Shown here: piece after piece, positions 37,001 through 46,702 of the stretch
How positions within the stretch are numbered: the first letter of the stretch is position 1
Layout of the letters: each line of letters starts with the position of its first letter
Program-made: the position numbers and the translations under genes
The notes under the pieces: generated by a model
Databases searched by the model: none
Seen by the model: the letters and a program-made list of their open reading frames with translations, nothing else
What the model was told of the DNA's origin: nothing
Assembly (NCBI GenBank): GCA_964620965.1
Contig: CAZUHV010000001.1
Span: 329,718-393,717 of the forward strand
DNA: 64,000 nt
Source: an uncultured Pseudomonadales bacterium
GTDB taxonomy: Bacteria > Patescibacteriota > Microgenomatia > UBA1400 > PJMF01
Direction of reading: 5' to 3'

Positions 37001-37056
37001 TATGCTTCTATGTCAACGTATGTGCGTTTATATGCACGTATATGCGTCTATATACA
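37001..37056. repeat. Iteron-like short direct repeats (TATATGC / TATGTGCGT units) in a 325-bp divergent intergenic region
   Basis: atatgcttctatgtcaacgtatgtgcgtttatatgcacgtatatgcgtctatatacat: four or more copies of TAT(A/G)TGC(R)CGT at about 10-11 bp spacing. Lies between the hsdM start and the ParB-MTase start. Confidence 0.5.
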
Positions 37057-37259
37057 TTGAAATATCAATCTAATTTGTCATTTTTCCTATTGCATTTTCG
37101 TTTGGGATGATTTAAAGTAAACTTACTCGCAAGAGTCGTGTGCGGACACGTTAAATGACGCATTTTTGAATATTGTTTCGTTGTCTTTTCTAGGCAACTG
37201 AATTGTATTCAGGGATGCGTCTTTTTTTTATCAATTTTTCCGCAAATGAAAGGAGCGAT

Positions 37260-38558
37260 ATGCCCAAAAGCATACAGCAATCGTACAAGGTAAAGGAGCT
37301 TCAAATCACTGAAGTGCCGATCGAGAGAATTAAAGAAGCCTCATATAATCCTCGCTTTTTGTCACAGAAAGCAGAAGCGGATTTGACTAAAAGCTTAGAG
37401 ATTTATGGCTGTACTGAGCCTCTGATATTAAATATGTTTCCCGGTCGTGAATACACGCTAGTCTCTGGTCACCAACGGCTAAAAATTTTGAAGAAGCTAG
37501 GCTATGCAGTGGTTCCAACAGTCAGCGTCAATCTACCCCTTGAAGCTGAGATGAAGTTGAACCTTCGCATGAACCGTAATATTGGCGAATTTGATCTAAA
37601 CCTGCTTCGCAATTTTGAGCTCGATGTACTTTTGGAGACAGGCTTTGATGACTCTGACCTGTCAGCAATCTGGGACGATGCTCTCGAGATCCAAGATGAT
37701 GATTTTGATGTCGAACAGGCAGTCATCCAACACGCTGAACCTAGAACTAAACTAGGTGATCTATATCAGCTCGGCCCGCATCGTTTGCTTTGTGGCGACG
37801 CCACTTCATTATCTGACATTCAGCGACTGGTGGGTAACGAGCGAATCGACATGACCTATACGGATAGTCCCTTTAACATTAGCCTGGACTATGCCAAAGG
37901 TGTTAGCACTAAGGGCAAGTATGGAGCGACCAAAACAAACGATTCCAAGTCACCTAAAGAGTATCGCCAATTTCTTCATGATGCAATCAGTAATGCCATT
38001 GCAGTGAGCAAGCCAGACGCTCATTACTTCTACTACATGGATCAAAACTGGATATGGTTACTGCAAACACTCTATATGGAACTGGGTGTCAAGCATGAGC
38101 GGGTGTGCCTATGGATTAAGAATAATTTTTCACCCACGAGTGGAAATTCGTTTAACAAATGTTATGAACCGGTTATCTACGGTGTTCGTGGTAAACCTTA
38201 TCGCAACCCAAAACTGCTTAACCTCAATGAGATTCTAAACAAAGAAGTGGGCACTGGCAACAGGTTACATGATGACATTTTAGACCTAATGGAAATTTGG
38301 TTGGTCAAACGTAAGGCTGGGCAGGATTATGTCCATCCTACGGAAAAAGTTCCATCACTGCATGAAAAAGCACTGAGGCGGTGCACGAAGCCAGGAGACC
38401 TTGTACTCGACACTTTCGGTGGGAGTGGCTCGCTACTTGTAGCTTGCGAACAACTGAGACGTAAAGCCTACCTTTGCGAGCTCGATCCAGTCTTCTGCGA
38501 TGTCATTATCGACCGTTATACACAATTAACCGGAAAGGAACCAATCTTATGCAAATAA
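37260..38558 (+). CDS. ParB-like nuclease domain / DNA methyltransferase fusion (phage-type, beta-class amino-MTase)
   Basis: Start at MPKSIQQSYKV (RBS GGAGCGATATG). N-terminal ParB motif (LVSGHQRLKILKKLG). MTase motif IV DSPF (MTYTDSPFNIS) precedes motif I DTFGGSGSLL. Confidence 0.8.
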   Translation: MPKSIQQSYKVKELQITEVPIERIKEASYNPRFLSQKAEADLTKSLEIYGCTEPLILNMFPGREYTLVSGHQRLKILKKLGYAVVPTVSVNLPLEAEMKLNLRMNRNIGEFDLNLLRNFELDVLLETGFDDSDLSAIWDDALEIQDDDFDVEQAVIQHAEPRTKLGDLYQLGPHRLLCGDATSLSDIQRLVGNERIDMTYTDSPFNISLDYAKGVSTKGKYGATKTNDSKSPKEYRQFLHDAISNAIAVSKPDAHYFYYMDQNWIWLLQTLYMELGVKHERVCLWIKNNFSPTSGNSFNKCYEPVIYGVRGKPYRNPKLLNLNEILNKEVGTGNRLHDDILDLMEIWLVKRKAGQDYVHPTEKVPSLHEKALRRCTKPGDLVLDTFGGSGSLLVACEQLRRKAYLCELDPVFCDVIIDRYTQLTGKEPILCK

Positions 38559-39298
38559 AACCAGGCATGATTTTACAGCTCGGCGAGCACGTCCTCGCTT
38601 GTGGAAATAGTACAGACAAGGAGTTTGTTAAAAAAGTAATTGGTGATGCTACTATTGCATCCCTTCAAGTTGACCCTCCATATGGGATCGCAATTGCTGA
38701 TTCATCACTTAACCCCACCAAGCATAAACCACTTGTTAATGACCACCTGCAGTCTGATGAAGATTATGCCAAATTTACCAGAGACTGGCTCGAAGCAGTT
38801 GAACCATTTTTAGCGAGGAAAAACTCGGCTTATATCTGGAACTCCGACCGTATGGTCTTTGCACTGCGACAGGGCATGTTGCAGTCTGGGTTTAAGGTGT
38901 CACAGATGCTTATCTGGGTCAAATCACAACCAGTCATTGGCAGACTAGACTATTTGCCTACCCATGAGCTCTGTATTTACGGCTGGTACGGCACACATAA
39001 ATTTCATAAAGCTAAAGACAAGTCAGTGTTGTTTGCTCCAAAACCACAAAAAAGTAAGTGGCATAGTACACAGAAGCCAGTGACATTGATTCGACGGTTA
39101 ATACTTAATAGTACCGAGGTGGGAGACACAATCTATGACCCATTCTTGGGCAGCGGCACAACCTTGTTAGCCAGTCAGCAGACACTTCGAAAATGCATCG
39201 GCATCGAGCTCATGCCCGAATACTGCCAAGTTGCAGTTGACCGCTGGGAGCGTTTAACTGGTCAAAAAGCGACCGTTAGAAAGGACTCTCATGAATAA
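38549..39298 (+). CDS. DNA methyltransferase (beta-class N4-C/N6-A)
   Basis: Start MQIKPGM at 38549, overlapping the upstream gene by 10 nt. Motif IV VDPPYGI, motif I DPFLGSGTTL. Confidence 0.8.
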   Translation: MQIKPGMILQLGEHVLACGNSTDKEFVKKVIGDATIASLQVDPPYGIAIADSSLNPTKHKPLVNDHLQSDEDYAKFTRDWLEAVEPFLARKNSAYIWNSDRMVFALRQGMLQSGFKVSQMLIWVKSQPVIGRLDYLPTHELCIYGWYGTHKFHKAKDKSVLFAPKPQKSKWHSTQKPVTLIRRLILNSTEVGDTIYDPFLGSGTTLLASQQTLRKCIGIELMPEYCQVAVDRWERLTGQKATVRKDSHE

Positions 39299-39713
39299 AG
39301 ACCTGCAAGATCGCACGGCTATTAATCGTAAGCTCATGCTAGAACAACTCCAAAAGACACCGATCGTGCAGGTGTGTTGCGAAAAACTGAATATTTCCCG
39401 TTCAACCTATTATCGCTGGAGGGAGGAAGACTCAGAATTTGCCAAACAAGCAGATATAGCGTTGGCGGAGGGAGTGGAACTGATTAATGATCTCACTGAA
39501 TCGCAGTTACTGTCAGCCATTAAAAATGGAAACATCAGTAGCATTTTTTACTGGTTGAACCACAGACACTCTGCCTACAGTAATAAGTTAGAGGTTACTA
39601 CAAAAGTCGATAAAGAAACATTAACGACCGAGCAGGAGGAGCTCATTAAAAAAGCTCTCGAACACGCATCACTCATTATGAAAGGAGGTCACAGTGATAC
39701 CAATAATCAATGA
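39291..39713 (+). CDS. HTH DNA-binding protein, probable terminase small subunit
   Basis: 140 aa; helix-turn-helix (NISRSTYYRWREED). Sits immediately upstream of and overlapping the large terminase. Confidence 0.45.
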   Translation: MNKDLQDRTAINRKLMLEQLQKTPIVQVCCEKLNISRSTYYRWREEDSEFAKQADIALAEGVELINDLTESQLLSAIKNGNISSIFYWLNHRHSAYSNKLEVTTKVDKETLTTEQEELIKKALEHASLIMKGGHSDTNNQ

Positions 39714-45924: not shown

Positions 45925-45929
45925 AAAAA

Positions 45930-46472
45930 TTAAAGAACTGGTTCAAAATCCCATTTCGATTCGTAGTCTACAGCCAACGGGGTGTCAATTGGATAGCCAT
46001 CATTTTCCAAGCCTATTCTAAATCTTCTCAAATTTGTGTCGCTTTCCTCAGTCTTTGTAGACAACCAATATTGATGTTGTTCTCTAACGTAGTTAGCCAC
46101 AATATTGCTTGGTACAACAAAAAATCTAAATACTTGTTCAGAAGAGATATTTACGAAAATATAAAATAGATTGGGATCAACAATAGTTTCATGCTTCTCA
46201 GACATCATTCAGTCAAATGTATTGCCAAACATTCTTGATTTATATGCGTTGTCTCTATAGTGAGTTTTAACCTCAATTTTAAACATTCTTCCTGTTTCGG
46301 GGTCAGCCACCAAGATATCAACGCTTTTAGTATTACCCAATGTCATGTTGGCATCATAACCATACAGAGTAAGTTGAGATAAAACAGCAAACTCACCTGC
46401 CAAAGCAATAGAATTATTTGAAAGATTACGCATTCCTTCAGTATAACAAGGAACAAAAAAGCTTAGAACCAA
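45930..46472 (-). pseudogene. PD-(D/E)xK nuclease-family (Hjc/restriction-endonuclease-like) gene split by an in-frame TGA (46209-46211)
   Basis: ORFs 46209-46472 and 45930-46208 are in the same frame, separated only by TGA (...MFGNTFD*MMSEKHE...). The N-terminal part has the VDILVADPETGRMFKIEVKT motif. Confidence 0.5.
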
Positions 46473-46618
46473 CGACTTTTCCTTCCAAGCGTTTTTAGGC
46501 GATTTTCTAGCTTACAGGCCTCTTTTGCGACCCCCATGCCTTTTGTGGAAAATTAAGTAAGATACATCAATCTATTTGAGCATAGTAGGTGGGTCTTGGA
46601 GCAACCAAGGGGTGTTTG

Positions 46619-46702
46619 CGGAGGTGAAGGGATTCGAACCCTTGAATCCAATAAGGATCACGCTTTCCAGGCGTGTGCAATTGACCACTATGCGACACCT
46701 CC
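46619..46702 (-). tRNA. tRNA-Ser (anticodon GGA), class II with long variable arm; CCA not encoded
   Basis: Minus-strand sequence GGAGGTG-TC-GCA-TAGTGGTCAAT-TGC-A-CACGC-CTGGAAA-GCGTG-(15-nt variable arm)-AAGGG-TTCGAAT-CCCTT-CACCTCC-G. All stems pair. Confidence 0.85.

What the first reader, a model, noticed from the sequence alone, without database searches (positions are those of the whole stretch)
37001..46702. Phage-derived integrative element lacking structural genes (satellite-like) next to tRNA-Ser
The segment carries, in order:
- a ParB-nuclease/DNA-methyltransferase fusion
- a second beta-class amino-MTase
- an HTH protein in the small-terminase position
- a large terminase
- an XRE repressor
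- four unknown genes
- a small ORF
- a large serine recombinase
- a split PD-(D/E)xK gene
- tRNA-Ser(GGA).

No portal, capsid, tail or lysis genes are present. GC is clearly higher (about 45% by eye) than the flanks.

This resembles phage-inducible chromosomal islands or degraded prophages. The two orphan MTases would give anti-restriction protection to packaged DNA. The iteron-like repeats at 37001-37056 could be its replication origin or operator.
Basis: partly seen in the sequence, partly recalled or inferred. Interest (0 to 1): 0.55.

Follow-up and report, generated by a model that had tools for sequence, protein, structure and literature searches.

The report
Terminase-carrying, capsid-less mobile island in Patescibacteria
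This segment belongs to a widespread, apparently undescribed family of mobile islands in ultra-small (Patescibacteria/CPR) bacteria that keep a phage DNA-packaging motor, DNA methylases and an integrase but no virus-shell genes, carry anti-phage defence genes, and most plausibly spread by hijacking another phage's capsids.

Summary
Positions 37.0-46.7 kb hold a translationally coupled operon: ParB-methyltransferase, methyltransferase, small terminase-like HTH and large terminase. An XRE gene, four cargo genes, a large serine recombinase, a nonsense-split gene and tRNA-Ser(GGA) follow.

It is not a decaying prophage. The same module, without portal, capsid, tail or lysis genes, recurs in at least 519 species-representative genomes, nearly all Patescibacteria.
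- A ParB-MTase or MTase lies upstream of TerL in 94 of 94 loci.
- A serine recombinase lies downstream in 55 of 72 loci.
- Core genes have dN/dS of 0.03-0.10.
- Module terminases form one clade, separate from true phages whose TerL is followed by portal, protease and capsid genes.

A conserved att motif abuts the tRNA-Ser 3' end and co-varies with the recombinase type. Some relatives are bounded by 25-58-nt direct repeats and measure 14-17 kb. Slots around the core hold interchangeable defence systems.

In this window only the tRNA-proximal att site exists, so the left end is undefined. The mobile unit probably reaches beyond 37.0 kb to include the Type I R-M/Shedu cassette.

Most likely mechanism, inferred and not shown: a satellite-like island that packages itself with its own terminase into a helper phage's capsids.

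The parts
25904..27325 (+). DUF2779 gene. It is a conserved left-flank gene, 87-98% nt identical in L011, L016 and L025. It may be the left arm of the island or a host gene.
   Evidence: Pfam. Homology blocks start at window 25718 in L011 and L025.
28463..36934 (-). Variable defence cassette in the slot immediately left of the module. It is a Type I R-M system: HsdR 28463-31432, HsdS 32801-33958, and two HsdM genes at 33960-35426 and 35423-36934. A Shedu SduA gene (31437-32795) is embedded in it.
   Evidence: Pfam, PADLOC. The same cassette occurs in L004-L007. Relatives carry Type III R-M, Type IIG + HKD-SNF2, or MkoA-like + WYL in this slot.
36998..37053 (+). Tandem 20-nt repeats, 2.8 copies, at the left edge of the conserved module. 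They are a candidate operator, promoter or terminase recognition region; the function is untested.
   Evidence: TRF. Conserved in L009, L011, L016, L024 and L025.
37136..37229 (+). Conserved 5' leader of the packaging operon. It has a 29-nt invariant block (37136-37164), a long hairpin (37157-37221) and a U8 run (37222-37229). It looks like an intrinsic terminator or attenuator.
   Evidence: Alignment. MFE -50 kcal/mol, z -5.5. Seven of 15 pairs show compensatory changes. No Rfam family matches.
37260..38558 (+). ParB_N-domain / N6-N4 DNA methyltransferase fusion.
   Evidence: Pfam, phrog_498. dN/dS 0.03-0.07.
38549..39298 (+). Second N6/N4 DNA methyltransferase. It is optional in the wider family.
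39291..39713 (+). Small-terminase-like HTH protein.
   Evidence: phrog_4044 E 1e-9, with weak Pfam GP3_package and Sf6_terminase hits.
39694..41259 (+). Large terminase with intact ATPase and nuclease motifs. It behaves as a swappable cassette between elements.
   Evidence: phrog_38 E 5e-75. Invariant motifs. dN/dS 0.05-0.08. Allele swap with L024 and L025, with homology lost exactly between 39674 and 41242.
41243..41455 (-). XRE-family HTH regulator, convergent with TerL and divergent from the next gene.
   Evidence: Pfam HTH_3.
41568..42671 (+). 367-aa cargo gene and candidate defence gene, with a PD-(D/E)xK-like motif.
   Evidence: PADLOC PDC-S11 E 1e-13. Conserved next to XRE in many relatives.
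42679..43283 (+). Two small cargo ORFs of 65 aa and 136 aa. From their sequence they look like probable membrane proteins.
   Evidence: Homologs in L009, L010 and L024.
43287..44204 (+). Protein with DUF7638 and DUF7639 domains and a Shedu-like C-terminal nuclease region. It is a cargo gene and candidate defence gene.
   Evidence: Pfam. PADLOC SduA E 6e-8.
44385..44627 (+). 80-aa ORF overlapping the recombinase start codon. It is conserved in relatives and is a candidate directionality factor or regulator (inferred).
44620..45924 (+). Large serine recombinase, here called type A.
   Evidence: Pfam Resolvase + Recombinase + Zn_ribbon_recom, phrog_95. dN/dS 0.025-0.035.
45930..46433 (-). 167-aa cargo gene inactivated by a TGG->TGA change at 46209-46211.
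   Evidence: Intact in L024, L010 and L289.
46533..46617 (-). Conserved attachment-site arm directly 3' of the tRNA. It contains an imperfect dyad, CATCA.CCTAT-N6-ATAGGTTGATG in the family consensus. The motif type co-varies with the recombinase type.
   Evidence: At least 45 further instances in metagenomes. The nhmmer profile gives a single window hit, E 6e-21.
46618..46702 (-). tRNA-Ser(GGA). It is the integration target and the right boundary of the element.
   Evidence: In relatives different tRNA-Ser isoacceptors sit at the same junction.

Best explanation
SHOWN
- The segment is the conserved core plus cargo of one member of a large family of genomic islands in Patescibacteria.
- The invariant core has three parts: a leader carrying a terminator-like hairpin; a translationally coupled operon of ParB-MTase, an optional second MTase, TerS-like protein and TerL; and, in most members, a large serine recombinase downstream.
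- The islands sit at the 3' end of tRNA genes. This subfamily uses tRNA-Ser and some others use tRNA-Gln.
- The junction carries a conserved motif of about 50 nt with dyad symmetry, and the motif type tracks the recombinase type.
- No member encodes portal, capsid, tail or lysis proteins.
- The core genes are under strong purifying selection.
- Slots to the left of the operon, between TerL and the recombinase, and between the recombinase and the tRNA hold interchangeable cargo. The cargo is mostly anti-phage systems.

INFERRED MECHANISM
- The island behaves like a phage satellite.
- A signal lets transcription read through the leader terminator. The signal may be SOS, acting through the LexA/CI-type S24 repressor that many relatives encode beside the operon, or a helper-phage factor.
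- The serine recombinase excises the island at the tRNA att site, possibly aided by the small ORF fused to its start.
- TerS recognises the island's DNA, perhaps at the 20-nt repeats.
- The island's own TerL docks on a helper phage's procapsid portal and packages island DNA.
- The methylases pre-modify that DNA. Alternatively the ParB-like domain assists terminase cleavage, as HNH proteins do in cos phages.
- The defence cargo pays the host for carriage.

THIS COPY
- It has an intact core and an intact tRNA-proximal att site.
- It has no detectable distal att site, and one cargo gene carries a nonsense mutation.
- It may therefore no longer excise precisely.
For: - Recurrence of the module. 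Loci with TerL 85%, 69% and 61% identical to the window's show the same gene order in different neighbourhoods. At least 519 tblastn-confirmed loci exist in species-representative genomes and 143 in IMG/VR.
- Linkage. A ParB-MTase or MTase lies upstream of TerL in 94 of 94 loci. A serine recombinase lies within 10 kb downstream in 55 of 72 loci. By eye on the maps the recombinase follows TerL directly in roughly 25 loci; the stricter ORF-based count gives 18.
- No structural genes. Of 683 proteins from 28 true-phage loci, only TerL hits the module loci, apart from four trivial hits. Those phages carry a portal-MuF fusion, a protease, a major capsid protein and an adaptor right after TerL, so PHROGs can detect such genes in this lineage.
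- One origin. The 121 module TerLs and 23 phage TerLs are reciprocally monophyletic.
- Selection. dN/dS is 0.03-0.10 for ParB-MTase, MTase, TerS, TerL, XRE and the recombinase. Catalytic motifs are invariant.
- Mobility.
  - A 58-nt direct repeat bounds a 14.2-kb element in L002. A 36-nt repeat bounds 14.7 kb in L028. A 25-nt repeat of the tRNA-Gln 3' end bounds 17.2 kb in L060.
  - The att motif lies next to five different tRNA-Ser isoacceptors.
  - An identical right arm (100% and 99% protein identity) is joined to a real tRNA in L004 and L275 but to a pseudo-tRNA in L235.
  - L196 shows the left end: motif, pseudo-tRNA, then the module.
- Phage-type regulation. Relatives encode a LexA/CI-like S24 repressor beside the operon. 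The leader has a conserved terminator hairpin with covariation.
- Cargo like that of known satellites: CBASS, Type I, Type III and Type IIG R-M, Shedu, Ltp/Sie, Schlafen-like proteins and copper resistance.
- TerL allele swapping with breakpoints exactly at the ORF ends. This fits matching to different helper portals.
Against: - No helper phage, packaged DNA, circular form or induction has been observed. Everything past 'conserved mobile island' is inference.
- No replication gene was recognised in the core.
- No described satellite family carries TerL without capsid genes. A foreign TerL would have to fit a helper's portal.
- The 100% coupling of methylase and terminase is stronger than an accessory anti-restriction role predicts. 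It also fits a restriction-like system.
- Direct repeats of 25-58 nt are long for a serine integrase.
- In the window the second att site is absent.
- The LexA-like repressor and the ~210-250-aa gene seen beside the operon in relatives are absent from the window.
Confidence: 0.5

Rival explanations
1. Terminase-derived restriction-like defence module. TerS (DNA recognition) and TerL (ATP-driven translocase plus nuclease) attack invading or unmodified DNA. The ParB-MTase and MTase mark self DNA. The serine recombinase only moves the module between tRNA sites.
For: - Methylase and terminase are strictly linked in 94 of 94 module loci, whereas a ParB-MTase-like gene turned up in only one of the 28 related true-phage loci.
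- The four genes are translationally coupled.
- The module is embedded among R-M, Shedu, CBASS and other defence genes.
- It has been retained for a long time without capsid genes.
- TerL diversifies and swaps faster than its neighbours.
Against: - TerS, TerL and the recombinase match no PADLOC family.
- ParB-MTase genes are ordinary phage genes (phrog_498).
- Phage-type S24 repressors and a terminator-controlled leader point to inducible late-operon logic rather than constitutive immunity.
- To my knowledge no terminase has been shown to act as a restriction enzyme.
Confidence: 0.17
2. Part of a split or domesticated virus-like system, such as a gene-transfer-agent-like system or a prophage whose virion genes lie elsewhere in the chromosome. 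The module would then supply packaging for capsids encoded at another locus of the same genome.
For: - The terminase genes are intact and under selection.
- Only about 10 kb on each side of each locus could be inspected.
- The family is mostly confined to one phylum and its TerLs are monophyletic.
Against: - The module is mobile. It has att sites and direct repeats, sits at different tRNA genes, and occurs twice in some genomes.
- Its content varies like an accessory element.
- None of about 140 loci shows a single virion gene nearby.
- The 64-kb window contains none within about 10 kb of the segment.
Confidence: 0.08
3. Ordinary decaying prophage remnant. The terminase end and the integrase of a once complete prophage were left behind after the structural genes were deleted.
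For: - One cargo gene carries a nonsense mutation.
- One att site is missing in the window.
- GC is raised over only part of the segment.
Against: - The same structural-gene-less architecture is seen in hundreds of species.
- dN/dS is 0.03-0.10.
- Catalytic residues are invariant.
- The module TerLs are monophyletic, separate from phage TerLs.
- Repeat-bounded 14-17-kb relatives have no room for virion genes.
Confidence: 0.04

Closest known systems
Phage-inducible chromosomal islands (PICIs/SaPIs)
   Same: - An integrative island of about 10-17 kb.
- No virion genes, but its own small terminase.
- Repressor-controlled, with a packaging operon beside a LexA-type regulator in relatives. From my own knowledge, SaPI operon I is LexA-controlled.
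- Accessory slots filled with anti-phage systems.
   Different: - It encodes a large terminase, which the SatelliteFinder paper (PMC10085698) describes as a cfPICI-specific core component that distinguishes cfPICI from PICI.
- No primase/replicase or capsid-morphogenesis gene was detected.
- It has a serine rather than the usual tyrosine integrase.
- Its operon is led by an obligatory ParB-MTase.
- Its hosts are Patescibacteria.
Capsid-forming PICIs (cf-PICIs)
   Same: They carry both TerS and TerL, so packaging specificity is fully satellite-encoded. They still depend on a helper for the rest of the particle.
   Different: - cf-PICIs also encode a capsid protein, protease, portal, head-tail adaptor/connector and HNH: 11 core genes in all (PMC10085698).
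- None of these is present here or in about 140 relatives.
PLEs of Vibrio cholerae
   Same: From my own knowledge, PLEs are satellites with no structural genes that integrate with a large serine recombinase and have strong anti-phage effects.
   Different: - PLEs have their own replication initiator and no TerL.
- They integrate into Vibrio repeat elements.
- They are a narrow, nearly clonal group.
- No sequence relationship to them was tested or seen here.
P4-like satellites and P2-like prophage defence hotspots
   Same: From my own knowledge (Rousset et al. 2022), conserved flanking genes bracket a slot in which unrelated defence systems replace one another. The slot left of the ParB-MTase behaves the same way.
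   Different: The core genes differ completely. P4 has a primase, Psu, Sid and delta and uses P2's terminase.
Temperate phages whose TerL is about 34% identical (IMG/VR contigs L136-L168)
   Same: They have a homologous large terminase preceded by a small TerS-sized ORF.
   Different: - They are 35-55-kb genomes in which TerL is followed by a portal-MuF fusion, protease, major capsid protein and adaptor.
- They carry no serine recombinase next to TerL, and only one of their proteins resembles the ParB-MTase.
- Their TerLs form a separate clade.

Membership tests
PICI (SatelliteFinder definition, PMC10085698) | Integrase; tyrosine and serine types are treated as exchangeable | tested here: met
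   Large serine recombinase at 44620-45924.
PICI (SatelliteFinder definition, PMC10085698) | Primase/replicase module | tested here: not met
   No replication-related Pfam or PHROG hit for any gene between 37260 and 45924. None was found in the arms of L083, L002 or L028 either.
PICI (SatelliteFinder definition, PMC10085698) | Small terminase or capsid-morphogenesis gene that redirects packaging | tested here: met
   TerS-like protein at 39291-39713 (phrog_4044 E 1e-9). No capsid-morphogenesis gene is present.
PICI (SatelliteFinder definition, PMC10085698) | No other phage packaging or structural genes; TerL is a cfPICI-specific marker | tested here: not met
   TerL is present and conserved.
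PICI (SatelliteFinder definition, PMC10085698) | Induction and mobilisation by a helper phage | not testable with these tools
   This needs induction or infection experiments, or particle-fraction sequencing.
cf-PICI | TerL plus TerS | tested here: met
cf-PICI | Own capsid, protease, portal and head-tail adaptor/connector | tested here: not met
   No such PHROG or Pfam hits in the window segment or its flanks. No homolog of the related phages' virion proteins occurs in about 140 module loci.
PLE | Large serine recombinase integrase | tested here: met
PLE | PLE-specific core genes such as RepA, NixI and TcaP | not tested
   No PLE profiles were available. No replication initiator was detected.
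Complete or decaying prophage | Virion and lysis genes present, or pseudogenised remnants with relaxed selection | tested here: not met
   No virion or lysis genes. dN/dS is 0.03-0.10 in the core. The architecture is conserved in at least 519 loci.
Serine-recombinase integrative element | Catalytic domain + recombinase domain + zinc ribbon | tested here: met
   Pfam PF00239, PF07508 and PF13408.
Serine-recombinase integrative element | Two att sites flanking the element | tested here: inconclusive
   Both sites were found in relatives: L002 (58-nt repeat), L028 and L060, and L196 shows a left end. In the window only the tRNA-proximal site, 46533-46617, is detectable.
Serine-recombinase integrative element | The recombinase acts on these att sites | not testable with these tools
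   Only indirect support exists. The motif type co-varies with the recombinase type, and the recombinase is the only recombinase in repeat-bounded L002.
Restriction-modification-like defence system | Obligate pairing of a methylase with a nuclease/translocase | tested here: met
   A methylase lies upstream of TerL in 94 of 94 loci. This is co-occurrence only.
Restriction-modification-like defence system | Match to a known or candidate defence family; restriction activity | tested here: not met
   TerS and TerL have no PADLOC hit. Restriction activity itself cannot be tested here.

The most novel reading that the evidence does not exclude
A phylum-wide, previously unrecognised class of phage satellite in Patescibacteria. 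It carries a complete terminase (TerS + TerL) and dedicated DNA methylases but no capsid, portal or replication genes. It integrates at tRNA-Ser or tRNA-Gln through a large serine recombinase. It hijacks helper procapsids with its own motor, swapping TerL alleles to follow helper portals. It is a main vehicle for anti-phage defence systems in these tiny genomes.
Probability: 0.4. Interest if true: 0.8.

Novelty: new variant of a known kind. Interest (0 to 1): 0.62.

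Why it matters
- Patescibacteria/CPR make up a large share of bacterial diversity. Their genomes are about 1 Mb and few of their mobile elements have been characterised.
- This family is found in at least 519 species-level genomes. It appears to be a major carrier of their restriction, Shedu, CBASS and other defence systems.
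- If it is a satellite, it adds a new hijacking strategy: bring the whole packaging motor and nothing else. It would also extend satellites to a new phylum.
- If instead the terminase-methylase pair is itself a defence, that would be a new kind of restriction system.
- Either way the family supplies two testable parts. One is a set of serine integrases with defined tRNA-Ser att sites, which could be useful as genetic tools for CPR bacteria. The other is a conserved terminator-type leader RNA.

Tried and rejected
- Second att copy or tRNA fragment in the window. I tried blastn-short, pattern searches with 3 mismatches and an nhmmer profile built from 41 distinct motif instances. Only the site at 46533-46611 was found.
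- A 20/23-nt inverted match between 46548-46570 and about 25706-25728 looked like terminal inverted repeats. Part of it lies in a coding sequence conserved in L011 and L025, so I treat it as chance.
- I suspected that loci with long gene runs after TerL (L040 and similar) were full prophages. PHROGs showed Sie-like, MarR-like and ABC-transporter cargo, with no virion genes.
- Exact-protein lookup of the window TerL returned only a 1.8-kb contig.
- Cultured-phage genomes have no close TerL; identity is at most 25%.
- Six literature searches on Patescibacteria or CPR combined with terminase, recombinase, satellite or island terms found no description of this family. The library is incomplete, so prior description cannot be excluded.
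- Rfam has no family for the leader or the att region.
- The simple promoter and terminator scan was at chance level.

Full report
**1. What is in the window**

- Four genes overlap end to end and form one operon.
  - ParB_N-MTase fusion, 37260-38558.
  - MTase, 38549-39298.
  - HTH protein with small-terminase matches, 39291-39713.
  - Large terminase, 39694-41259 (phrog_38, E 5e-75).
- In the terminase, Walker A (FRGSGKST), Walker B (DDIED) and the nuclease aspartates are invariant in an alignment with 19 relatives.
- A convergent XRE gene follows at 41243-41455.
- Four cargo ORFs lie between 41568 and 44204.
- An 80-aa ORF overlaps the start of a large serine recombinase (44620-45924).
- A 167-aa gene is split by a single TGG->TGA change. 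It is intact in L024, L010 and L289.
- tRNA-Ser(GGA) lies at 46618-46702.

GC is raised (0.42-0.45) only over 37-42 kb.

Upstream, on the other strand, lies a Type I R-M system with two hsdM genes and an embedded Shedu gene (28463-36934). A DUF2779 gene lies at 25904-27325. Downstream are ordinary host-like genes: NUDIX, DUF1761, a hydrolase and a glycosyltransferase. No virion or lysis gene lies within about 10 kb on either side.

**2. It is a conserved architecture, not decay**

The window TerL has hundreds of homologs. Where they are named, the names are Patescibacteria lineages. Loci encoding TerL at 85%, 69% and 61% identity have the same order in different neighbourhoods: ParB-MTase, MTase, TerS, TerL, XRE on the opposite strand, a few variable genes, then the serine recombinase.

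The best 80 are nearly all CPR MAGs, and some genomes hold two copies. IMG/VR gave 143 more.

I mapped ORFs in these loci against the window proteins.
- All 94 loci with enough upstream sequence have the ParB-MTase or MTase before TerL.
- 55 of 72 loci with enough downstream sequence have a serine recombinase within 10 kb.
- By eye on the maps, the recombinase follows TerL directly in roughly 25 loci. The stricter ORF-based count gives 18.

Long gene runs after TerL, as in L040, are cargo (Sie-like, MarR-like, ABC transporter) and not virion genes.

IMG/VR contigs of 35-55 kb whose TerL is only 31-36% identical are real phages. There TerL is followed by a portal-MuF fusion, a ClpP-like protease, major head proteins and an adaptor. 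Of 683 proteins in those phage loci, only TerL matches anything in the roughly 140 module loci, apart from four trivial hits.

In a neighbour-joining tree the 121 module TerLs and 23 phage TerLs are reciprocally monophyletic. The capsid-less module is therefore one old lineage, not the result of repeated truncation.

Pairwise dN/dS between the window and five relatives is 0.03-0.10 for every core gene: TerL 0.05-0.08 and the recombinase 0.025-0.035.

**3. Ends and mobility**

In every close relative a tRNA-Ser gene lies 0.5-5 kb beyond the recombinase on the opposite strand. The isoacceptor differs between loci: GGA, TGA, CGA, GCT or ACT.

Directly 3' of the tRNA, on the island side, is a conserved stretch of about 50 nt with dyad symmetry.
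- Its sequence comes in two types. The types match the two recombinase types: about 79-97% and about 57% identity to the window's.
- A 17-mer from it recovered at least 45 further true instances in metagenomes.
- Each instance is preceded either by a genuine tRNA-Ser 3' end or by a degenerate pseudo-tRNA end.

Several relatives define element ends.
- L002 has the motif plus 6 nt of tRNA as a 58-nt direct repeat 14.2 kb apart. The repeats enclose five extra genes to the left of the ParB-MTase, including a LexA/S24 repressor, and two to the right of the recombinase.
- L028 (36-nt repeat, 14.7 kb) and L060 (25-nt repeat of the tRNA-Gln 3' end, 17.2 kb) are likewise bounded.
- L196 shows a left end: motif, pseudo-tRNA, a roughly 250-aa gene, then the ParB-MTase.
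- L259 is a 5.4-kb recombinase-less island between the two kinds of site.
- The right arm of the L004 element (100% and 99% protein identity) is also found joined to a pseudo-tRNA and other genes in L235.

These results show site-specific movement at the tRNA/motif junction.

In the window the motif occurs once, at 46533-46611 (E 6e-21). No second copy or tRNA fragment exists anywhere in the 64 kb.
- The region to the left behaves as an internal slot rather than as a flank. Between the conserved DUF2779 block and the ParB-MTase leader, different relatives carry different cassettes:
  - Type I R-M + Shedu in the window and L004.
  - Type III R-M in L011, L016 and L025.
  - Type IIG enzyme + HKD-SNF2 helicase in L024, L013 and L026.
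  - An MkoA-like helicase with a WYL regulator in L009.
- The mobile unit was therefore probably larger than 37.0-46.7 kb.
- Its left att site has been lost or lies outside recognition.

**4. Regulation**

Many relatives encode, divergently from the operon, a LexA/CI-type repressor with an S24 peptidase domain. It is followed by an unannotated gene of about 210-250 aa.

In the window these two genes are absent, but the leader is conserved.
- 20-nt tandem repeats (36998-37053).
- A 29-nt block invariant in seven relatives.
- A long hairpin (37157-37221) followed by U8.
  - MFE is -50 kcal/mol and z is -5.5.
  - Seven of 15 pairs show compensatory changes across diverged relatives.

Other subfamilies also place a large hairpin plus a T-run before the ParB-MTase. 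A terminator in front of a packaging operon suggests antitermination or activator control, as in phage late operons. That is inference.

**5. Cargo**

In the window:
- 41568-42671 matches PADLOC candidate PDC-S11 (E 1e-13).
- 43287-44204 combines DUF7638 and DUF7639 with a Shedu-like nuclease region.

Relatives carry in their arms a CBASS pair (SMODS + Cap15), an Eco57I-like enzyme with a SNF2/PLD helicase, the Ltp exclusion lipoprotein, a Schlafen/AlbA_2 protein and a copper-resistance set.

**6. Mosaicism**

L024 and L025 are 91-99% identical to the window in neighbouring proteins but only 44-45% in TerL. Nucleotide homology stops at 39674 and resumes at 41242, which are the ORF ends. L016, L018 and L021 show the same pattern at 60%. 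The swapped alleles all belong to the module clade.

**7. Interpretation**

What is shown: a conserved, mobile, tRNA-integrating island family with a terminase operon, methylases and a serine recombinase, with no virion genes and with defence-rich cargo.

What is inferred: it is helper-dependent, like a satellite, and uses its own TerS/TerL to fill a helper's capsids.

Points in favour:
- phage-type regulation;
- an element size of 14-17 kb, about one third of the 35-55-kb related phages;
- defence hotspots like those of P4 and PICIs (my own knowledge);
- TerL allele swapping.

Points against:
- no helper has been identified;
- no replication gene was found;
- no known satellite has TerL without a capsid.

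The main rival is a restriction-like role for the terminase-methylase pair, suggested by their 94/94 linkage.

By the SatelliteFinder definitions (PMC10085698) the element is neither a PICI nor a cf-PICI. It has TerL and lacks a replicase, so it fails the PICI definition. It has no capsid genes, so it fails the cf-PICI definition.

Six literature searches found no description of the family. The library is incomplete.

**8. Verdict**

The finding is best filed as a new variant of the satellite / phage-derived island theme. Its function remains to be tested.

Noticed in passing
window 37136-37229, and upstream of the ParB-MTase in L002, L008, L009, L011, L015, L016, L020, L023, L024 and L025: A conserved leader RNA with a 29-nt invariant block and a long hairpin followed by a U-run. 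The hairpin shows compensatory base changes. It matches no Rfam family. It is likely a regulated terminator in front of the packaging operon.
   Followed up: partly
L008 16439-16528, L011 20028-20113, L018 6691-6778, L025 16164-16251: tRNA-Ser genes predicted with the unusual anticodon ACT sit beside the islands. The same genomes also have tRNA-Ser(GCT). I could not tell whether the ACT genes are functional, modified, or by-products of recombination at tRNA-Ser genes.
   Followed up: no
window 28463-36934, and L004-L007 1-7348: A Type I R-M operon with two hsdM genes and a Shedu sduA gene inserted between hsdS and hsdR. The arrangement is conserved at 77-79% nt identity in another element.
   Followed up: partly
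window 39674-41242 compared with L024, L025, L016, L018 and L021: The TerL ORF is exchanged as a precise cassette between otherwise 85-99% identical elements. dS also varies about tenfold between neighbouring genes of one pair, which indicates frequent recombination among elements.
   Followed up: partly
window 20361-25718 and 47835-47922, compared with L025 19066-21525: L025 comes from a close relative; its host genes are 96-99.6% identical. There the whole block from DUF2779 to tRNA-Ser(GCT) is inverted relative to host segment 20361-23274. The 2.4-kb stretch 23275-25717 (LUD and cupin genes) is absent at that junction. The window breakpoint at 25718 truncates a small minus-strand ORF that is intact in L011 and L025.
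   Followed up: partly
L259 1-6055 (also L279 and L256): A 5.4-kb island with no recombinase or terminase lies between a tRNA-Ser + att motif and a pseudo-tRNA + att motif. It is a possible hitchhiker mobilised in trans. L011 has a similar 3.5-kb tandem insert between two motif copies.
   Followed up: partly
L004 17768-18686: A second, inverted att motif lies 3' of tRNA-Ser(CGA), followed by an 86-aa fragment of a serine recombinase gene. This is a decayed second element facing the first.
   Followed up: no
window 52852-53880: A local GC peak (0.515 against a background of about 0.34) coincides with a 342-aa proline-rich ORF that has an N-terminal hydrophobic segment and no Pfam hit.
   Followed up: no
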